Source of the DNA: Mycoplasma mycoides subsp. capri
Lineage (GTDB): Bacteria > Bacillota_I > Bacilli_A > Mycoplasmatales > Mycoplasmataceae
Reading direction: 5' to 3'
DNA: 32,000 bases
Assembly: GCF_018389705.1 (NCBI RefSeq)
Contig: NZ_CP065581.1
Coordinates: forward strand, 450,001 to 482,000
Under the pieces are notes generated by a model. That model did no database searches, was not told the origin of the DNA, and saw only the letters and a program-made list of their open reading frames with translations. Shown piece by piece: positions 4,221 through 32,000 of this stretch (positions are counted from its first letter, which is position 1; every line of letters begins with the position of its first letter). The position numbers and the translations under genes are program-made.

Positions 4221-5027
4221 ATGAATAAAATGAATCAAGTTAATAGTATGCAAGAACCAATATCACAAAACAACAAAGAACAAGAAAAAAAAATTAAAGA
4301 TCATATTCATGTTAATCATTGAAAAATGTTATTTATGTGATTGCCTTTATTACATATTAAATTTAAAGCAGCAAAAATTGTAAGAAAAAATAAAAAACAA
4401 CCAGATAGATATACTGAAGAATATAGATATAATTGAGTTAAAAAAGCTGTTAGCAAGTTATTATATGTTTTAGATGTCAATATAAAAGTAGAAGGTATTG
4501 AAAATTGAATTGATAAAGGAGTAATTTTAGCTGCTAATCATCAATCAAATATTGATCCAGCTATTTTATTTGCTATTAATGATTTTTCAAAACAACAACC
4601 TTTAGCTTTTATTGCAAAAGAAGAGCTTTGAACAAGTAAAAAATTTAAAAATTTTGTTAGATTAATTGACTGTATACCTTTAAATAGAAAAAGTCCTAGA
4701 AGCGCTTTAGAAGCATTTAAAGAAGCAAAAGATTTAATTGTTGATTACAAACGTTCTTTAGTAATTTTTCCAGAAGGTACTAGAAGTCATTCTCAACAAA
4801 TGAATAGTTTTCAAGCAGCTTCATTAAAAGTTGCACAAATGTCTCATGCTCCTATTATTCCTGTTTCAATTATTAATTCATATCAAGTATTTGCTGAAAA
4901 AAGACCTAAAAAAGTTGAAGTTAAAGTGGTTTTTGGTAAACCTATTTCACCAAATAAACATATTTCTTTAAAAACTGAAGATCTAACTAGATTTGTTGAA
5001 AAAATTGTTGATACAAATCTAAAATAA
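4221..5027 (+). CDS. plsC: 1-acyl-sn-glycerol-3-phosphate acyltransferase
   Basis: NHQSNID (HX4D) and FPEGTR acyltransferase motifs. Frame checked from ATG 4221 (a TAG lies upstream in frame) through 6 TGA codons to TAA 5025-5027. Confidence 0.9.
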
Positions 5028-5967: not shown

Positions 5968-6043
5968 GCTGACTTAGCTCAGTTGGTAGAGCAATTGACT
6001 AGTAATCAATAGGTCGAAGGTTCAAATCCTTTAGTCAGCACCA
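5968..6043 (+). tRNA. tRNA-Thr, anticodon AGT (A at wobble position 34)
   Basis: Cloverleaf folded by hand: acceptor GCTGACT/AGTCAGC, anticodon stem ATTGA/TCAAT, loop CTAGTAA, T-loop TTCAAAT, encoded CCA. Confidence 0.9.
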
Positions 6044-6049
6044 GTTATT

Positions 6050-6133
6050 GGAGGGGTAGCGAAGTGGCTAAACGCGGGTGGCTGTAACCCACTTCCTTAC
6101 GGTTCGGGGGTTCGAATCCCTCCCCCTCCACCA
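6050..6133 (+). tRNA. tRNA-Tyr (GTA), long variable arm
   Basis: Acceptor GGAGGGG/CCCCTCC, anticodon loop CTGTAAC, T-loop TTCGAAT, encoded CCA. Confidence 0.9.
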
Positions 6134-6138
6134 TTTAT

Positions 6139-6213
6139 TGGGCTATAGCCAAGCGGTAAGGCAAGGGACTTTGACTCCCTCATGCGCCGGTTCGAATCCT
6201 GCTAGCCCAACCA
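6139..6213 (+). tRNA. tRNA-Gln (TTG)
   Basis: Acceptor TGGGCTA/TAGCCCA, anticodon stem AGGGA/TCCCT, loop CTTTGAC, encoded CCA. Confidence 0.9.
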
Positions 6214-6217
6214 TCTT

Positions 6218-6293
<76 letters not shown>

Positions 6294-6303
6294 TTTCTAT
6301 TTT

Positions 6304-6392
6304 CCCCAAGTGGCGGAATAGGTAGACGCATTGGACTTAAAATCCAACGGGCTTAATATCCTGTGCCGGTTCAAGTCCGGCCTTGGGGACCA
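6304..6392 (+). tRNA. tRNA-Leu (TAA), long variable arm
   Basis: Acceptor CCCCAAG/CTTGGGG, anticodon loop CTTAAAA, T-loop TTCAAGT, encoded CCA. Confidence 0.9.
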
Positions 6393-6483: not shown

Positions 6484-7548
6484 TTATTTTGCAGGAGCTG
6501 GAGCGGGAGCGGCTGGAGCAGGAGTAGGAGTTGGCGTAGGTTGTGGTGCTGGTGCTGGACTTGGAGTAGGTTTTTCTTCTTTTGCCTTTTCTTTTTCGTC
6601 TTTATTATTCTTTTTATCGTCTTTTTTATTTTCTACTTTATCTGTTCCTTGGTATTTTCATTCAGTTTTAGGAGTAATCATTGGATCTGAATCTTGTAAA
6701 AGTTTAACTACATCATACATTTCAATAGCTTGTTTTAAATAGCTTATTCATTGATCATAAGTATTTTTTCTAATATCTGAACCATTAGGATAATTATCTA
6801 TTGTTTTAGTAGCGTTTTTTTGATCTTGTTTACTAAAAGTTTCAAAACCACTTACAATTCCATAAAACATCTTATCTCTTAAAACTAAAAATATTGGTCC
6901 TTTTAGATTTTTAACTTTATCTTGTAATTTTTCTACTTTTTCAGTTACTGTATTATCATTTTTATTAAAACTTGAACTAGTTTCACCATAAAATGCTTTA
7001 GCTCAGTTTTTAACAAGATATTCATTTAGTATTTTAGAAGTTAAACCTTTAGTTCATATTTCATCATCTGAATCATATTTAAAGTTTTTAATCACAACAT
7101 CATTTGTCATGTTTTTAAAGATTTGTTTAGAATTTGATGAAGTCTTTTGATCAATTATTCATCTTTCTTTTTTAGTTTTACTGTTTTTGTCTTTTTTAAC
7201 CTCAACATCATTTAAAACTTTTGTGTGATTATTTGTACTATTTCAGCTTAAATTACTTTTAAATTTATAAATAAAACTTGTAGCATCATTTGTACTAGTT
7301 TCATTAATATTTTTAATAGCTTGTTCTAATGAATTAGTTTTAGTTAATTCTTCTAATCCTTGTTCAAATGATTTTGCTGATTTATTATCACTAGCTCCTA
7401 AATAAAGGATCATAGTTTTATTTTCAGATTGATTAATTAGGTTTTCAAATTCTTGAAATTGTTTATCTGTTGTTTTACAACTTATAGCAAAACTAGCACT
7501 TGTTGTAATAACAAAACTGCAAGCTAATAACGATAGAAGTTTTTTCAT
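6484..7548 (-). CDS. Lipoprotein (354 aa) with Pro/Thr/Ala-rich C-terminal tail
   Basis: MKKLLSLLACSFVITTSASFAISC signal peptide with lipobox; SD AAGGAG. I verified the frame line by line through 7 TGA codons to a double TAA. The C-terminus is KPTPSPAPAPQPTPTPTPAPAAPAPAPAK. Confidence 0.85.
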
Positions 7549-9293: not shown

Positions 9294-9379
9294 GTTGAAA
9301 AAAAGTTTCAACCGCTCTTTTGTATGTTCTAAAGCAGTATATCTCACGTACATAGGCGAGTCTAGACTGGAGGAAAATA
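9294..9379 (+). promoter_or_regulatory. Structured 5' leader of rplU (possible L21-leader-type autoregulatory RNA)
   Basis: Hairpin GTTGAAA-AAAAG-TTTCAAC (9294-9312). The 10-bp palindrome AGTCTAGACT (9359-9368) directly abuts SD GGAGG (9369-9373). Confidence 0.35.
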
Positions 9380-28195: not shown

Positions 28196-28514
28196 GAATT
28201 TTTAATAATTTTTCAAATTACTTTTTTAAATAAAAATAGATTTTATTAGTAAATAAGTAGTATATTTACTATTTTTCTACTTTATAAACGGTCACTATTA
28301 TACCATATTTTCATTAACATATTGCATTATATATATATATATATAATGAATGTATGTTATATATGTTTGGATTTGTATATAACAAGTATTTTTAAAGTTT
28401 TTATAAGGAGATATTAAATTGAAAAAATTATTAACTATTTTAAGTTCATTTGGTTTAATTGCTACAACTGGTGCTAGTGTAGTAGCTTGTAAAAATGATC
28501 AATCAAATTCTTTA
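28196..28514 (+). repeat. Direct repeat copy 1: promoter + 5'UTR + signal-peptide cassette of the lipoprotein family
   Basis: Near-identical to 28923-29247 apart from TA-tract length, a few 1-2 nt indels and a few substitutions. Confidence 0.85.
28322..28345 (+). promoter_or_regulatory. Candidate phase-variable promoter: TTGCAT, (TA)8, TATAAT
   Basis: (TA)8 spans 28328-28343. TATAAT (28340-28345) overlaps the end of the tract. The spacer is 12 nt. Confidence 0.6.
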
Positions 28515-28850
28515 TCATCTAGTGAAGAAGAAAATAAAAATTTAGGTTCTGCTCCAATAGAAGAGAAGAAAGAAGAAAATACTGATATAAACAAAGAAAA
28601 AGAAAAATTCAAAAATCAAATAGCAGTATTAACTGAAAAAGAAAAACAAGCAGAAAATTTATTAGAAACTATTAAAAAAGGTGTTGAAAAAGTAAATAAT
28701 TTATCTAATGAAGATAAAGAAAAGCAAAAACATAATTTAGAAACATTAAATACACAAAAACGTGAAGTTGAGAAACAATTAGAAACAATAAAGGTAACTA
28801 AAAAAGATTTAGAATTGAAATTAAACAAGTTAGAGAGTAATAATTCATAA
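28419..28850 (+). CDS. Coiled-coil surface lipoprotein, paralog 1 (143 aa, TTG start)
   Basis: SD AAGGAG 7 nt before the TTG start. MKKLLTILSSFGLIATTGASVVAC lipobox. E/K-rich heptad-like C-terminal region. Confidence 0.8.
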   Translation: MKKLLTILSSFGLIATTGASVVACKNDQSNSLSSSEEENKNLGSAPIEEKKEENTDINKEKEKFKNQIAVLTEKEKQAENLLETIKKGVEKVNNLSNEDKEKQKHNLETLNTQKREVEKQLETIKVTKKDLELKLNKLESNNS

Positions 28851-28922
28851 TCTAATTTATTTAATAAAAAACTTTATAAAAATATAGATCTATTTATTTT
28901 TTGTATGTAAATAGCTTTTTTT

Positions 28923-29247
28923 AATTTTTAATAATTTTTCAAATTACTTTTTTAAATAAAAATAGATTTTATTAGTAAATAAGTAGTATATTTACTATTT
29001 TTTCTACTTTATAAACGGTTGCTATTATACCATATTTTCATTTACATATTGCATTATATATATATATATATATATATAATGAATGTATGTTATATATGTT
29101 TGGATTTGTATATAACAAGTATTTTTAAAGTTTTTATAAGGAGATATTAAATTGAAAAAACTATTAACTATTTTAAGTTCATTTGGTTTAATTGCTACAA
29201 CTGGTGCTAGTGTAGTAGCTTGTAAAAATGATCAACCGAATTCTTTA
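28923..29247 (+). repeat. Direct repeat copy 2 of the promoter/5'UTR/signal-peptide cassette
   Basis: See copy 1. Carries (TA)12. Confidence 0.85.
29049..29080 (+). promoter_or_regulatory. Candidate phase-variable promoter: TTGCAT, (TA)12, TATAAT
   Basis: (TA)12 spans 29055-29078. TATAAT is at 29075-29080. The spacer is 20 nt. Confidence 0.6.
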
Positions 29248-29586
29248 CAACCTAAAGAAGAAGAAAACGAAGGTTTAACTTCTAGTGGAGAAGAAAATAC
29301 TAATTCAAACAAAGAAAAAGAAAAAGAAGCTGAAAAAGCTAAACTTAAATCTCAAATAACAGTTTTAGAGGGTGAAGTTAAGAGAGCTGAAAAATTATTG
29401 AAAGATATTGAACAAGGCATTCAAACAGTAGAAAAACAAAAAGAACCAGAAAAATTTAAGGAAAACTTAGAAAAGCTAAAGGCACTAAAACCTGAAATTG
29501 AAAAACAATTAGAAACAGCTAAGGTAACTAAAAACGAATTAGAAACAAGATTAAGAGCTTTAGAAAGCGATGTTTCAACTAGTTAA
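29152..29586 (+). CDS. Coiled-coil surface lipoprotein, paralog 2 (144 aa, TTG start)
   Basis: Signal peptide and lipobox identical to paralog 1. Conserved C-terminal EKQLET.KVTK..LE..L..LES. Confidence 0.8.
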   Translation: MKKLLTILSSFGLIATTGASVVACKNDQPNSLQPKEEENEGLTSSGEENTNSNKEKEKEAEKAKLKSQITVLEGEVKRAEKLLKDIEQGIQTVEKQKEPEKFKENLEKLKALKPEIEKQLETAKVTKNELETRLRALESDVSTS

Positions 29587-29771
29587 TTAAATTTAATTAA
29601 ATAGAAGTTTAATAGGTTTTGTTTTTTACAAATATAATGGGTATTGGTTTTAATATCACAAACATTTATATATTTACATACCATCTTATTAAAAATAAAA
29701 ATCTTAAAAACAGTAATATTTATATAAAATTCGTATGAAATTTTATATAAATAATAAATTAATAATGAAAC

Positions 29772-29800
29772 AAAGGCTTGGATAATTTCCGAGCTTTTTA
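29772..29800 (+). terminator. Degenerate copy of the lipoprotein-locus terminator
   Basis: AAAGGCTTGG-ATAATTT-CCGAGCTTTTT. It resembles the perfect hairpin at 30470-30500 but has a substitution and a 1-nt deletion in the 3' arm. Confidence 0.45.
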
Positions 29801-29907
29801 TTATGATTTCTTACTAATTAATAAGTAATAAAACAAGCTATTTTTATAAATATTTCTTTCAAAATATGAAAGAAAAACGCTAATCTTATCATATTTAAAT
29901 TTGTATA

Positions 29908-29935
29908 TTGACATTACAAACATTCTATATATAAT
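29908..29935 (+). promoter_or_regulatory. Fixed consensus promoter of lipoprotein paralog 3
   Basis: TTGACA (29908-29913), 16-nt non-repetitive spacer, TATAAT (29930-29935). Confidence 0.65.
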
Positions 29936-30003
29936 GCACTCTGTTATATATGTTTTGAATCGTATGTAACAAGTATTTTATTTTTTAATAAGGGGTGTGT
30001 AAA

Positions 30004-30441
30004 ATGAAAAAGTTAATTACAATTTTAAGTTCATTTGGATTAGTTATTACAACTGGTACAACTGCAGTTGCTTGTAAGAATAATCAACCAAGTAGTTTGA
30101 AACCTACAACAGAAGATCAAAATACAAGTTTAACTTCTACTCCAGAAAATAACGGATTAGAAAATACAGATTCAATTCAAAATAAAGAAGAAGAATTAAC
30201 AAAAGTTAGAGCTCAACTAGCGCAATTAGAAGATGCTGAACAAAAAGCTAAAAAAATATTAGGACAAATTGATGAAGGTAATAAGAAAGCAAATGAAACA
30301 TCTGAAAAAGAAAAAATTAAAAACGATGTAGAAAAATTAAATGCACAAAAATTAGAAGTTGAAAATGCACTTAAAAAAATAAAAGAAATTAAACAACAAC
30401 TAGAATCTAAATTAAAAACCTTAGAAGGAAAAAACAACTAA
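30004..30441 (+). CDS. Coiled-coil surface lipoprotein, paralog 3 (145 aa, ATG start)
   Basis: SD AAGGGG before ATG 30004 (the track's GTG at 29995 is less likely). MKKLITILSSFGLVITTGTTAVAC lipobox. Same domain layout as paralogs 1 and 2. Confidence 0.8.
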   Translation: MKKLITILSSFGLVITTGTTAVACKNNQPSSLKPTTEDQNTSLTSTPENNGLENTDSIQNKEEELTKVRAQLAQLEDAEQKAKKILGQIDEGNKKANETSEKEKIKNDVEKLNAQKLEVENALKKIKEIKQQLESKLKTLEGKNN

Positions 30442-30469
30442 ACTTAATCTATTTTTTCTAATTAAAAAC

Positions 30470-30500
30470 AAAGGCTTGGATAATTTCCAAGCCTTTTATT
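30470..30500. terminator. Bidirectional intrinsic terminator between convergent genes
   Basis: Perfect AAAGGCTTGG/CCAAGCCTTT stem with a 7-nt loop and T-rich flanks on both strands. Confidence 0.75.
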
Positions 30501-30514
30501 ATATTAATTTTTTT

Positions 30515-32000
30515 CTAGTATTTTTTAATGAACTTAACTTCTGTAATTTCATAAGGTTTGTCTTGAGATTCTAATCTTAAAACAGGTATTTCATGACCAA
30601 ATACATCTTTTTTAATTTTGATTCCAACTACATAGTAAGTTTTATCATTTCATTTAACTTGTTGATATAGTTTAACTGGTTTATTTAATTCTATAACTTT
30701 TGGAGTTTCATTATTTTTATTAGGATTTAAAGCTACTTGTTGATTTGTAATAACTTCATTATTTGAAGTTTGATCAGCTTGAGATGAAGTTATATCTAAA
30801 TTATTAGTTTCTTGATCAACTGAATCATTTGTTTTAATAGTTTTATTTCTAATTTCTTGATCTGTTTTTGAATCTAAAAAGTCTTTATCATTACTATATT
30901 CTTTTAAATCAGTTTCAGGACTAATAGTTCAAATTTTATTATTTATAGTTTGATTAGTTTTAATTAATGGTTCTTGATTATTAGTTTGTTTTAGATCAGT
31001 TTCTGGTTGATTAATTCATAATTTATTTATTTCAGTTTGATTTGAAATATTATTATCTAATTGTTCAGTTAATTCTTCTTGGTTTTGATCACAAGAACTT
31101 TGACAATCACAATTAGTTATACTACATTCACAACCATCTTTTTTATTACATTCTTCTTGACAGTTTGAATTATCTACACAACATTTATTTTCTGTACAAC
31201 ACTTATCAGTTTTGCATTCTTTAATAGAACAAGAATTATTTTCATCACATTTTTTATTTTCACAAGAATTGTTGTTATTAGATTCTTCACAGCATTTGTC
31301 TTGAACACAGTTTTTATTTTCACAAGAATTATTTTCACTACATTTATTTTCTTCACAACATAAATTATCAGAACATTTATCTTGTTTTTCACATTCACAA
31401 TCTTGTTCATCTTGACAAGTATTTTCAACTTCACAACAAGCTTTTTGATCACAAGAATCATCAGAGCATTCTTCTACTTTTTCTTCACAAGTTTTATCAC
31501 ATTCACATTTATCTTCTTGTTTTTCTTCAACTCAATGTTCTGTGCTTAGTTCATGTTCTTTATTAAAATCTTCTTCATTTATATGCGCGTTTTCTTCAAC
31601 TCAGTGTTCTTTACTTAATTCTTCAACTTGATTATTATCAACTAGTTCTTCTGGATTTTGAACTATTGGTTCGCTAATTAATTTTTGATCTAAACTAGTA
31701 TTAGTTTGTTGATCATTTTCAATTCAACTATCTTTTGTTATATCTATTTTTTTGATTAAATCACTAGTTAAATCTTTTTCTTCAATTCATGAATCTTTAG
31801 TTAAATCTTGTTCATCTAAAGTTGGTTCAATTTCTTGTTTTATTTCTTGGTTGTTTTTACTACCATTTTGAATTTCTCATTTATCAATATTAACAGTAGC
31901 TGTACCAAATTCTTCTGGATCTAGTTCAATTTCTTCTAGTTCTTCTAGTTTTTGATTAGCTAATAATATATCATCAAGATCATCTTTTAAACTTTCATCA
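30515..32000 (-). CDS. Large acidic repeat protein with metallothionein-like Cys-rich block; N-terminus outside window
   Basis: I verified the frame with codon starts at positions 2 mod 3 line by line from the TAG stop (complement of 30515-30517) to nt 32000, with 10 in-frame TGA and no TAA/TAG. It carries 33 Cys codons between 31091 and 31507. The track ORF at 31174-31461 is a different, spurious frame. Confidence 0.75.

What the first reader, a model, noticed from the sequence alone, without database searches (positions are those of the whole stretch)
28196..30500. Tandem three-gene family of coiled-coil lipoproteins forming a contingency-type surface locus
Three same-strand paralogs (143-145 aa) share a nearly identical signal peptide and lipobox. 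Each also has a short acidic, low-complexity region and a conserved E/K-rich heptad-like C-terminal domain (consensus around EKQLET.KVTK..LE.(K/R)L..LES). Genes 1 and 2 sit in a ~320-bp near-identical cassette that covers the promoter, a ~70-nt 5'UTR and the signal peptide, whereas their mature regions have diverged. This pattern is expected for antigenic diversification combined with concerted evolution, or recombination, of the expression cassette. The architecture matches the Vmm/Vmc class of phase-variable lipoproteins described in the mycoides cluster, but these particular coiled-coil proteins are larger than the Vmm I remember and may be an undescribed member set.
Basis: partly seen in the sequence, partly recalled or inferred. 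Interest (0 to 1): 0.7.

Follow-up and report, generated by a model that had tools for sequence, protein, structure and literature searches.

The report
TA-repeat switched lipoprotein genes, Mycoplasma mycoides
Three neighbouring genes of the goat pathogen Mycoplasma mycoides subsp. capri encode small lipid-anchored helical-hairpin surface proteins; two probably switch on and off through a slippery TA repeat inside their promoters and the third has a fixed strong promoter, which is a real but already familiar kind of surface-variation system.

Summary
Three same-strand paralogs (143, 144 and 145 aa) carry a Vmc-like lipoprotein signal peptide, a disordered acidic linker and a heptad-periodic two-helix hairpin. 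Genes 1 and 2 share a ~320-bp cassette (promoter, 5'UTR, signal peptide) that is 98-100% identical, while their mature regions are ~68% identical.

Genes 1 and 2 have (TA)9 and (TA)12 tracts lying exactly between a -35 (TTGCAT) and a -10 (TATAAT). In syntenic loci of other strains this tract has 7 to 13 units. Two 8.3-kb loci with no base substitutions differ by one TA unit and one further single-base indel.

Gene 3 is different. It always has (TA)4 within a perfect TTGACA-16-TATAAT promoter, so it looks constitutive rather than contingency-type.

The organism is M. mycoides subsp. capri. The gene 2 product is 99% identical to the GenBank entry 'VscD'. A (TA)13-controlled lipoprotein, very probably at this locus (JCVISYN3A_0481), has been published as a recurrent mutational target in evolving minimal cells.

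Verdict: a genuine Vmm/Vmc-type promoter-spacer switch locus. It belongs to a known kind and is not undescribed. The mature domain family is confined to M. mycoides and M. feriruminatoris.

The parts
28197..28520 (+). Expression cassette, copy 1: upstream region, promoter, 5'UTR and signal-peptide codons of gene 1.
   Evidence: It is 98-100% identical to 28923-29253 apart from tract length.
28322..28327 (+). Gene 1 putative -35 hexamer, TTGCAT.
   Evidence: It directly abuts the TA tract. It aligns with the TTGACA of gene 3 and of the M. feriruminatoris and M. capricolum relatives.
28328..28345 (+). (TA)9 tract forming the promoter spacer of gene 1. The -10 TATAAT lies at 28342-28347.
   Evidence: TRF gives period 2, 9 copies. 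The -35 to -10 spacer is 14 nt, outside the 16-18 nt range, so the promoter scan does not call it.
28355..28384 (+). 11-bp AU-rich hairpin at the predicted 5' end of the gene 1 mRNA.
   Evidence: Seen in the RNA fold. The same hairpin is present in genes 2 and 3 and in relatives.
28419..28850 (+). Gene 1: 143-aa lipoprotein. TTG start, AGGAG ribosome-binding site at 28406-28410, lipobox Cys24.
   Evidence: The ortholog in L007 is 95% identical in its mature part.
28923..29253 (+). Expression cassette, copy 2 (gene 2).
29049..29054 (+). Gene 2 putative -35 hexamer, TTGCAT.
29055..29078 (+). (TA)12 tract forming the promoter spacer of gene 2. The -10 TATAAT lies at 29075-29080.
   Evidence: TRF gives 12 copies. 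The spacer is 20 nt and the promoter scan does not call it.
29088..29117 (+). 5'UTR hairpin of gene 2.
   Evidence: Identical sequence to the gene 1 hairpin (family D7).
29152..29586 (+). Gene 2: 144-aa lipoprotein. Exact match to WP_017697768.1 / QVK04783.1 and 99% identical to 'VscD' ACF32329.1.
29772..29798 (+). Intrinsic terminator downstream of gene 2.
   Evidence: 11-bp stem followed by a T run. MFE -16 kcal/mol, z -4.6.
29908..29935 (+). Gene 3 fixed promoter, TTGACA-16 nt-TATAAT. It contains only (TA)4 (29926-29933).
   Evidence: 12/12 consensus match. The (TA)4 is invariant in all nine mycoides-type loci that retain this gene.
29942..29971 (+). 5'UTR hairpin of gene 3.
   Evidence: MFE -11.7 kcal/mol, z -2.8.
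30004..30441 (+). Gene 3: 145-aa lipoprotein paralog with the fixed promoter.
   Evidence: Orthologs P0009-P0011 are found in other strains.
30470..30496 (.). Bidirectional terminator hairpin after gene 3. It is shared with the convergent gene on the minus strand.
   Evidence: Called on both strands. MFE -17 kcal/mol, z -5.2.

Best explanation
This is a surface-lipoprotein locus of Mycoplasma mycoides subsp. capri with two stochastic switches and one constant gene. Genes 1 and 2 are each transcribed from a promoter whose -35 to -10 spacer is a (TA)n microsatellite. Slipped-strand mispairing during replication adds or removes TA units, which changes the spacer by 2 bp per event. This moves each promoter independently into or out of the productive 16-18 bp window, giving transcriptional ON/OFF phase variation with combinatorial output.

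In the sequenced state the spacers are 14 bp (gene 1) and 20 bp (gene 2), so both genes are predicted to be OFF or weak. Gene 3 has a non-repetitive, perfect-consensus promoter and is predicted to be constitutively ON.

All three products are exported and lipid-anchored at Cys24. Each displays a ~25-residue disordered acidic tether and a ~90-residue antiparallel two-helix coiled-coil hairpin, whose sequence is highly polymorphic between strains. The shared 5' cassette is kept uniform by gene conversion or recombination, while the mature parts diverge.

Shown here: the anatomy, the inter-strain tract polymorphism, the divergence pattern and the predicted fold. Inferred from homologous systems: that tract length sets expression, and that the proteins are surface antigens.
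For: 1. The (TA)9 and (TA)12 tracts lie exactly between TTGCAT and TATAAT. Such tracts never arise in shuffles.

2. At the same position in syntenic loci of other M. mycoides genomes n is 7, 10, 11 (five times) or 12, and at least 12 or 13 in contigs that begin inside the tract. L008 and L009 have no substitutions over 8279 bp and differ only by one TA unit and one homopolymer indel.

3. Gene 3 has (TA)4 in every one of the nine mycoides-type loci that retain it. Its promoter is the only 12/12 consensus match in the region.

4. M. feriruminatoris orthologs have an interrupted tract, (TA)4-CTAG-(TA)4, giving TTGACA-17-TATAAT, identical in two strains. M. capricolum relatives have TTGACAT(TA)9.

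5. The signal peptide scores above cut-off on NF045726 'Vmc-like lipoprotein signal peptide'.

6. Literature. Vmm expression is switched by dinucleotide indels in the promoter spacer (PMC2628566 and PMC10502178, both citing Persson 2002). The vmc genes vary by slipped-strand mispairing (PMC3498834, citing Wise 2006). In JCVI-syn3A, which derives from this subspecies, a (TA)13 tract between -35 and -10 of lipoprotein gene 0481 was shortened in evolved lines, and the authors read this as OFF to ON (PMC10448532). In syntenic loci the gene three to four positions downstream of the lipoprotein genes carries Pfam family 'MMSYN1_0478', which places 0481 at this locus.

7. Cassette versus mature divergence. 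Upstream identity is 96-100% and signal-peptide identity 99-100%, against 68-100% (mean 80%) for mature parts. Synonymous divergence is 0-0.05 against 0.3-0.7 in most comparisons, while flanking ruvA-rpsU is 98-99% identical between strains.

8. The hairpin fold and heptad periodicity are supported.
Against: No expression data exist for this strain. The ON repeat number for a TTGCAT -35 (one base shorter than TTGACAT) is not known, and spacers can only take even values, so n=10 or n=11 could be ON and the state of n=12 is uncertain.

Differences in tract length between assemblies could partly be sequencing or assembly error in a 100% AT repeat.

The link to JCVISYN3A_0481 rests on locus-tag proximity, not on a sequence comparison. 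By simple counting in two-gene loci, 0481 would fall on the fixed-type gene, which conflicts with its reported (TA)13.

dN/dS of 0.4-1.0 does not prove positive selection. Surface exposure and antigenicity were not tested.
Confidence: 0.8

Rival explanations
1. The TA tracts are neutral microsatellites in an AT-rich genome. All three genes are expressed constitutively, or from another promoter, and the tract length has no regulatory meaning.
For: The genome is 22% G+C. The -35 element TTGCAT matches the consensus at only 3 of 6 positions. The generic promoter scan finds fewer promoter-like sites in the region than in shuffles, 13 against 19.3, so hexamer matches alone are weak evidence.
Against: The only two long TA arrays in 32 kb both sit at the same cassette position, between a -35-like and a -10 hexamer. 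The paralog and orthologs without a long tract have a canonical TTGACA with a 16-17 nt spacer at the homologous place. Published experiments on Vmm, on Vmc and on syn3A 0481 tie tract length to expression (PMC2628566, PMC3498834, PMC10448532).
Confidence: 0.07
2. Variation at this locus works mainly by recombination rather than by ON/OFF switching. Mature-region segments would be swapped between paralogs or strains behind a constant expression cassette, giving antigenic variation by gene conversion or allelic replacement.
For: There is a sharp step in synonymous divergence at the end of the signal peptide. Copy number varies between strains, with one or two variable-type genes. A variable/fixed chimeric gene exists in the PG1-size M. 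mycoides genome L011. Alleles are deeply diverged although the flanks are 98-99% identical.
Against: No recombinase gene, silent cassettes or site-specific inversion sequences were seen near the locus. This process is visible only on evolutionary time scales here and does not exclude the TA switch. It most likely operates in addition to the switch.
Confidence: 0.1
3. Genes 1 and 2 form one transcription unit. Because there is no strong terminator after gene 1, switching gene 1 ON also expresses gene 2 by read-through, so the two switches are hierarchical rather than independent.
For: The 72-nt gap after gene 1 folds weakly (MFE -6.5 kcal/mol, z -0.4) and the scan calls no terminator there. Strong hairpins follow genes 2 and 3, at -16 and -17 kcal/mol.
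Against: AT-rich hairpins followed by T runs (28878-28905) may still terminate transcription in mycoplasmas. No transcript data are available.
Confidence: 0.3

Closest known systems
Vmc lipoproteins (vmcA-F) of Mycoplasma capricolum subsp. capricolum (Wise et al. 2006, J Bacteriol 188:4926; cited in PMC3498834 and PMC10448532; the paper itself is not held and its details come from memory)
   Same: Each gene has a (TA)n tract in the promoter region that changes by single-unit indels. The genes share a modular 5' region and signal peptide joined to divergent mature parts. Several genes lie together and are expressed combinatorially. The NCBIfam 'Vmc-like signal peptide' model matches above its cut-off. 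An M. capricolum relative, P0015, has TTGACAT(TA)9 and a similar architecture of linker plus helical hairpin.
   Different: The -35 is TTGCAT, one base shorter than TTGACAT. The 5'UTR sequence differs, although it forms an analogous hairpin. The mature proteins have no tandem repeats (the same remark is made for related Mmc lipoproteins in PMC3053259). One paralog of the locus has a fixed promoter.
[quoted passage not shown] 2002; summarised in PMC2628566 and PMC10502178)
   Same: It is a lipoprotein whose ON/OFF switching is transcriptional and caused by dinucleotide indels in a repetitive promoter spacer. It comes from the same species.
   Different: Vmm is much smaller (a 59-aa precursor, from memory of the abstract; '16 kDa' on gels per PMC2628566) and is encoded at another locus. 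At the present locus the PG1-size M. mycoides genome L011 has lost the tract and the -10 box and carries a frameshifted chimeric gene. No direct sequence comparison with Vmm was possible.
JCVISYN3A_0481 lipoprotein of the minimal cell JCVI-syn3A (PMC10448532)
   Same: It has a (TA)13 tract between -35 and -10 of an uncharacterised lipoprotein gene in a genome derived from M. mycoides subsp. capri. Tract shortening recurred in evolved lines. The locus-tag neighbourhood (MMSYN1_0478 lies three to four genes downstream) matches this locus.
   Different: Identity with gene 1 or gene 2 was not verified by sequence. The repeat number differs (13 against 9 and 12). The minimal genome may retain only one gene of the locus.
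GenBank 'VscD' (ACF32329.1, M. mycoides subsp. capri) and the annotation 'lipoprotein (VlcE)' in M. feriruminatoris
   Same: VscD is 99% identical to the gene 2 product, differing only at the C-terminal end. The protein annotated VlcE (P0013) is the syntenic M. feriruminatoris ortholog.
   Different: These are database names only. No paper describing Vsc proteins was found in the searchable library.
Vlp lipoproteins of Mycoplasma hyorhinis (Citti and Wise 1995; summarised in PMC10502178)
   Same: The logic is the same: a hypermutable tract in the promoter of each lipoprotein gene gives independent ON/OFF switching.
   Different: The tract is a homopolymeric poly(A) run rather than a TA dinucleotide repeat. 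The proteins are unrelated and vary in size through coding repeats.

Membership tests
Vmm/Vmc-type TA-tract phase-variable lipoprotein genes (M. mycoides cluster) | Lipoprotein signal peptide with lipobox, of the Vmc-like type | tested here: met
   NF038029 scores 38-45 bits against a cut-off of 24. NF045726 'Vmc-like lipoprotein signal peptide' scores 30-32 bits against 19.3. This holds for all three genes.
Vmm/Vmc-type TA-tract phase-variable lipoprotein genes (M. mycoides cluster) | Long (TA)n tract forming the spacer between the -35 and -10 promoter elements | tested here: met
   Met for genes 1 and 2: TTGCAT-(TA)9/(TA)12 with TATAAT formed at the tract end. Not met for gene 3, which has only (TA)4 in a fixed TTGACA-16-TATAAT promoter.
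Vmm/Vmc-type TA-tract phase-variable lipoprotein genes (M. mycoides cluster) | Tract length changes by whole TA units between closely related cells or strains | tested here: met
   Between strains n ranges from 7 to 13. L008 and L009 are free of substitutions over 8.3 kb and differ by one TA unit and one further single-base indel. Heterogeneity within a clone could not be tested.
Vmm/Vmc-type TA-tract phase-variable lipoprotein genes (M. mycoides cluster) | Expression ON/OFF correlates with tract length; reversible high-frequency switching | not testable with these tools
   Only literature on homologous systems is available (PMC2628566, PMC10448532). The prediction from spacer lengths of 14 and 20 nt is that both genes are OFF.
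Vmm/Vmc-type TA-tract phase-variable lipoprotein genes (M. mycoides cluster) | Shared modular 5' region (promoter, UTR, signal peptide) joined to divergent mature polypeptides | tested here: met
   The cassette is 96-100% identical while mature parts are 68-100% identical (mean 80%). There is a step in synonymous divergence at the boundary.
Vmc A-D subtype | Mature protein built largely of in-frame tandem repeats (from memory of Wise 2006; also PMC3053259) | tested here: not met
   TRF finds no coding tandem array apart from short AAAGAA runs. The protein is a single helical hairpin.
Vmm proper | Orthology to the vmm gene (59-aa precursor, SC-specific epitope) | tested here: not met
   The proteins are 143-145 aa. 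The locus lies between rpsU and a ~670-aa gene, and its counterpart in the PG1-size M. mycoides genome is a decayed chimeric gene, not vmm. A direct alignment to Vmm was not possible because the sequence was not retrievable.
Hairpin-lipoprotein family (Vsc/'VlcE' names in databases) | Mature domain homologous to VscD and the M. feriruminatoris orthologs | tested here: met
   Profile searches return only M. mycoides and M. feriruminatoris proteins plus one weak M. capricolum hit: 14 hits in 5.8 billion sequences and 4 hits among 1.84 billion cluster representatives for the mature domain alone.

The most novel reading that the evidence does not exclude
The helical-hairpin lipoprotein may not be a mere antigenic decoy. 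It could be a physiologically needed membrane-surface component, with a role for example in lipid or nutrient acquisition, membrane organisation or adhesion. In that case the locus is built so that one isoform (gene 3) is always made, while antigenically distinct substitutes (genes 1 and 2) are switched stochastically. This would explain why a gene of this locus was retained in the minimal genome JCVI-syn3 and why its activation was repeatedly selected in axenic culture, where there is no immune pressure.
Probability: 0.2. Interest if true: 0.55.

Novelty: new member of a known kind. Interest (0 to 1): 0.3.

Why it matters
The switch mechanism is textbook for the M. mycoides cluster, so the find is not a discovery of principle. 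Its value is descriptive. It defines an orphan, lineage-restricted family of lipid-anchored coiled-coil hairpins. It shows that the locus pairs two hypermutable promoters with one fixed consensus promoter. It documents 5' cassette homogenisation against deeply diverged alleles. It also probably ties the locus to an uncharacterised gene kept in the JCVI minimal cell. For vaccine and serodiagnostic work on M. mycoides subsp. capri, these proteins would be unreliable antigens, because they vary both in phase and in allele.

Tried and rejected
No M. mycoides reference genome was obtained that way. Related loci were fetched through the look-up of encoding contigs instead.

2. A search with the 46-aa signal peptide plus linker, meant to retrieve Vmm, Vmc and Vsc relatives, returned one protein only. 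A direct comparison with Vmm and VmcA-F therefore could not be made.

3. The primary papers on Vmm (PMC135138) and Vmc (PMC1483001) are not held. Their content is cited through secondary papers or marked as memory.

4. Literature searches for 'Vsc'/'VscD' found nothing relevant.

5. Pfam has no family above its cut-off, only weak coiled-coil noise.

6. Foldseek against the PDB gave no match at E <= 0.001, only generic antiparallel hairpins such as the Rad50 hook, ESCRT-III and FadA. No functional inference was drawn from these.

7. An attempt to calibrate MMSYN1 locus-tag numbering from Pfam names of neighbouring window genes gave no MMSYN1-named hits. No supplement is held for the syn3A paper.

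8. Rfam finds nothing in the locus.

9. The idea that the Logan contigs L013 and L014 come from syn3-type engineered genomes could not be tested. The 10-nt foreign tail CACCCCGCTA matches nothing held.
Full report
**What is there**

The window has 22% G+C and reads TGA as a sense codon. Between rpsU-ruvA-ruvB on the minus strand and a convergent ~670-aa gene lie three + strand genes:
- g1, 28419-28850: TTG start, 143 aa.
- g2, 29152-29586: TTG start, 144 aa.
- g3, 30004-30441: ATG start, 145 aa.

In the three-way protein alignment the other two paralogs are 63% and 51% identical to the first sequence. Residues 1-26 are almost invariant, ending in the lipobox (MKKLLTILSSFGLIATTGASVVAC-KN). NCBIfam models for mollicute lipoprotein signal peptides score above their curated cut-offs for all three genes. 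These include NF045726, 'Vmc-like lipoprotein signal peptide'. Pfam has nothing above its cut-off.

**The cassette**

Region 28197-~28520 matches 28923-~29253 at 37-40 of 40 bases per block wherever there is no tract-length gap. Identity then drops to 20-29 of 40 in the mature-coding region, with a local peak at the EKQLET.KVTK motif.

**The decisive feature**

TRF finds only two period-2 arrays in the whole window: (TA)9 at 28328-28345 and (TA)12 at 29055-29078. No dinucleotide-preserving shuffle contains a (TA)9. Both arrays sit at the same cassette position. Each is directly preceded by TTGCAT, and the last two TA units together with the next AT form TATAAT. The tract is therefore the -35 to -10 spacer, 14 nt in g1 and 20 nt in g2.

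A generic sigma-70 scan that requires a 16-18 nt spacer does not call either promoter. It does call g3 as the only 12/12 match in the region: TTGACA-16-TATAAT at 29908-29935. The g3 promoter contains only (TA)4.

All three genes then have an 11-bp AU-rich hairpin starting about 8 nt after the -10 box, followed by a ribosome-binding site. Strong terminator hairpins follow g2 and g3 but not g1.

**Organism and relatives**

The g2 product is an exact match to WP_017697768.1 / QVK04783.1 (M. mycoides subsp. capri). It is 99% identical to GenBank ACF32329.1, which is named 'VscD'.

Profile searches of 5.8 billion proteins gave 14 hits. All were M. mycoides or M. feriruminatoris, plus one weak M. 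capricolum protein. An exhaustive HMMER search with the mature domain alone against 1.84 billion cluster representatives gave 4 hits. The mature domain is thus a lineage-restricted orphan family.

**Comparative evidence for a switch**

Twelve syntenic loci were fetched.
- Mycoides-type genomes carry one or two variable-type genes followed by one fixed-type gene.
- The variable-type tract has n = 7 (L002), 10 (L007, second gene), 11 (L003, L005, L006, L007 first gene, L009) and 12 (L008, L010), against 9 and 12 in the window.
- Two further short Logan contigs that carry a variable-type gene start inside the tract, so they show only n of at least 12 and at least 13.
- L008 and L009 have no substitutions over 8279 bp. 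They differ only by one TA unit in this tract and one homopolymer indel elsewhere.
- The fixed-type gene has (TA)4 in all nine mycoides-type loci that retain it.
- In two M. feriruminatoris strains the single ortholog has an interrupted tract, TTGACAT-(TA)4-CTAG-(TA)4-AT. This gives a stable 17-nt spacer.
- Two adjacent M. capricolum lipoprotein genes have TTGACAT(TA)9.
- In a PG1-size M. mycoides genome, a deletion has fused TTGCAT to the 5'UTR. This removes the tract and the -10 box. The coding region there is an out-of-frame chimera of variable and fixed types, which indicates locus decay.

**Divergence pattern**

Between all variable-type genes, whether paralogs or alleles:
- the 225 nt upstream are 96-100% identical;
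- the signal-peptide codons are 99-100% identical;
- the mature parts are 68-100% identical (mean 80%).

By comparison, the flanking ruvA-rpsU region is 98-99% identical between strains. The proportion of synonymous differences is 0-0.05 in the signal-peptide codons, against dS of 0.3-0.7 in most mature-region comparisons. dN/dS lies mostly between 0.4 and 1.0.

A step in synonymous divergence cannot be explained by protein-level constraint. It points to gene conversion or recombination that homogenises the cassette, or to replacement of mature segments. g1 has a 95%-identical ortholog in L007, while g1 and g2 are only 68% identical. The paralogs therefore predate strain divergence, yet they keep a 98.6%-identical upstream cassette. 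The fixed-type gene shows the same allelic hypervariability.

**The protein**

AlphaFold2 with a 12-sequence family alignment gives:
- a signal peptide;
- a disordered acidic stretch (residues 12-48, pLDDT below 50);
- two long helices, 50-94 and 99-143, at pLDDT around 90-95, joined at a conserved Gly.

Both helices show significant heptad periodicity. Foldseek finds only generic antiparallel hairpins, with nothing at E <= 0.001. 'Coiled-coil lipoprotein' is therefore supported, specifically as a lipid-tethered helical hairpin. The oligomeric state is unknown.

**Mechanism**

The anatomy matches the promoter-spacer dinucleotide switch described for Vmm (PMC2628566 and PMC10502178, both citing Persson 2002). 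It also matches the vmc genes, which vary by slipped-strand mispairing (PMC3498834, citing Wise 2006).

For this subspecies, PMC3053259 lists poly-TA tracts of 10-16 units before six lipoprotein genes of strain 95010. One is MLC_5200. Its locus-tag position would be compatible with this locus, but that is my estimate and was not verified.

PMC10448532 reports that in JCVI-syn3A a (TA)13 tract between -35 and -10 of lipoprotein gene 0481 was shortened in three independent ways during laboratory evolution. The authors interpret this as OFF to ON. In the syntenic loci, the gene three to four positions beyond the lipoprotein genes hits Pfam family 'MMSYN1_0478'. Gene 0481 is therefore very probably a gene of this locus. 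This is an inference from tag proximity, not a sequence comparison.

From spacer lengths I predict that g1 (14 nt) and g2 (20 nt) are OFF or weak in the sequenced state and that g3 is ON. Which n is ON (10, 11 or both) is not established for the TTGCAT variant.

**Comparison and verdict**

The locus works like a Vmm/Vmc contingency locus and meets the testable membership features for g1 and g2. g3 fails the tract criterion, so the locus is two switches plus one constant gene.

The proteins are not Vmm. They are not of the tandem-repeat VmcA-D type either. They form their own small family, which is already named in databases (VscD, 'VlcE') but for which I found no descriptive paper.

I rate the find a new member of a known kind, with modest interest. 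The most novel reading that is not excluded is that these hairpins serve a needed cell-surface function, with constant and switchable isoforms. That reading is suggested by the retention of a gene of this locus in the minimal cell and by selection for its activation in culture.

Noticed in passing
window 28355-28384, 29088-29117, 29942-29971; L012 1785-1813 and 2609-2636; L004 ~4936-4965: An 11-bp AU-rich stem-loop begins about 8 nt after the -10 box, at the predicted mRNA 5' end, in all three genes. It occurs at the same position, with a different stem sequence, in M. capricolum TA-tract genes. It may stabilise the mRNA 5' end or act as a regulatory element. Individual z-scores are modest, from -0.8 to -2.8.
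   Followed up: partly
window 30500-32000, minus strand (cut by the window end); L002 6477-8498: The convergent downstream gene encodes a ~613-690-aa acidic protein with no signal peptide and no Pfam hit. It contains a ~130-aa stretch that is extremely rich in cysteine (CECDKTCEEKVEECSD...CCDENKCSENNSCEDKNC...). Its length varies between strains. This is unusual for a mollicute and may indicate metal binding.
   Followed up: no
L011 3930-4545 (M. mycoides, 1.21-Mb PG1-size genome, CP068548.1): At the syntenic locus the TA tract and the -10 box are deleted, so that TTGCAT is fused to TATATATG of the 5'UTR. The ORF is an out-of-frame chimera of a variable-type N-terminus and a fixed-type C-terminus. 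The locus appears to have decayed in this lineage.
   Followed up: partly
L004 4902-4930 and L015 ~2902-2930 (M. feriruminatoris): The ortholog's tract is interrupted as (TA)4-CTAG-(TA)4. This gives a fixed TTGACA-17-TATAAT promoter that is identical in two strains, yet the mature proteins still differ strongly between strains.
   Followed up: partly
window 28851-28922: There is no convincing terminator between gene 1 and the gene 2 cassette (MFE -6.5 kcal/mol, z -0.4). Strong hairpins follow genes 2 and 3. Read-through from gene 1 into gene 2 is therefore possible.
   Followed up: partly
L013 1-1011 and L014 1-997 (Logan SRR13638375, SRR13638057); L010 1-27: Short-read contigs carrying a variable-type gene start inside or at the edge of the TA tract (n at least 13, at least 12, and 12). 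L013 and L014 end inside the fixed gene's 5'UTR hairpin. L013 ends with 10 foreign bases, CACCCCGCTA, that match nothing held. The cause could be tract heterogeneity, an IS insertion or an engineered junction; it remains unexplained.
   Followed up: partly
L008 versus L009, position ~7268: Apart from the TA unit, the only other difference in 8.3 kb is a single A in a homopolymer. In L008 it splits the 548-aa gene into 204-aa and 363-aa ORFs. This could be a sequencing error or a second slippage-prone site.
   Followed up: no
window 6484-7548, minus strand: Another lipoprotein gene (354 aa; MKKLLSLLACSFVITTSASFAISC...) has a Pro/Ala/Thr-rich C-terminal low-complexity tail, which TRF reports as GCAGGA-type repeats at 6491-6558. 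No TA tract lies upstream of it.
   Followed up: no
window 5968-6392 and 9300-9373: A cluster of five tRNA genes (Thr, Tyr, Gln, Lys, Leu) and an L21 leader upstream of rplU. These are ordinary features.
   Followed up: no
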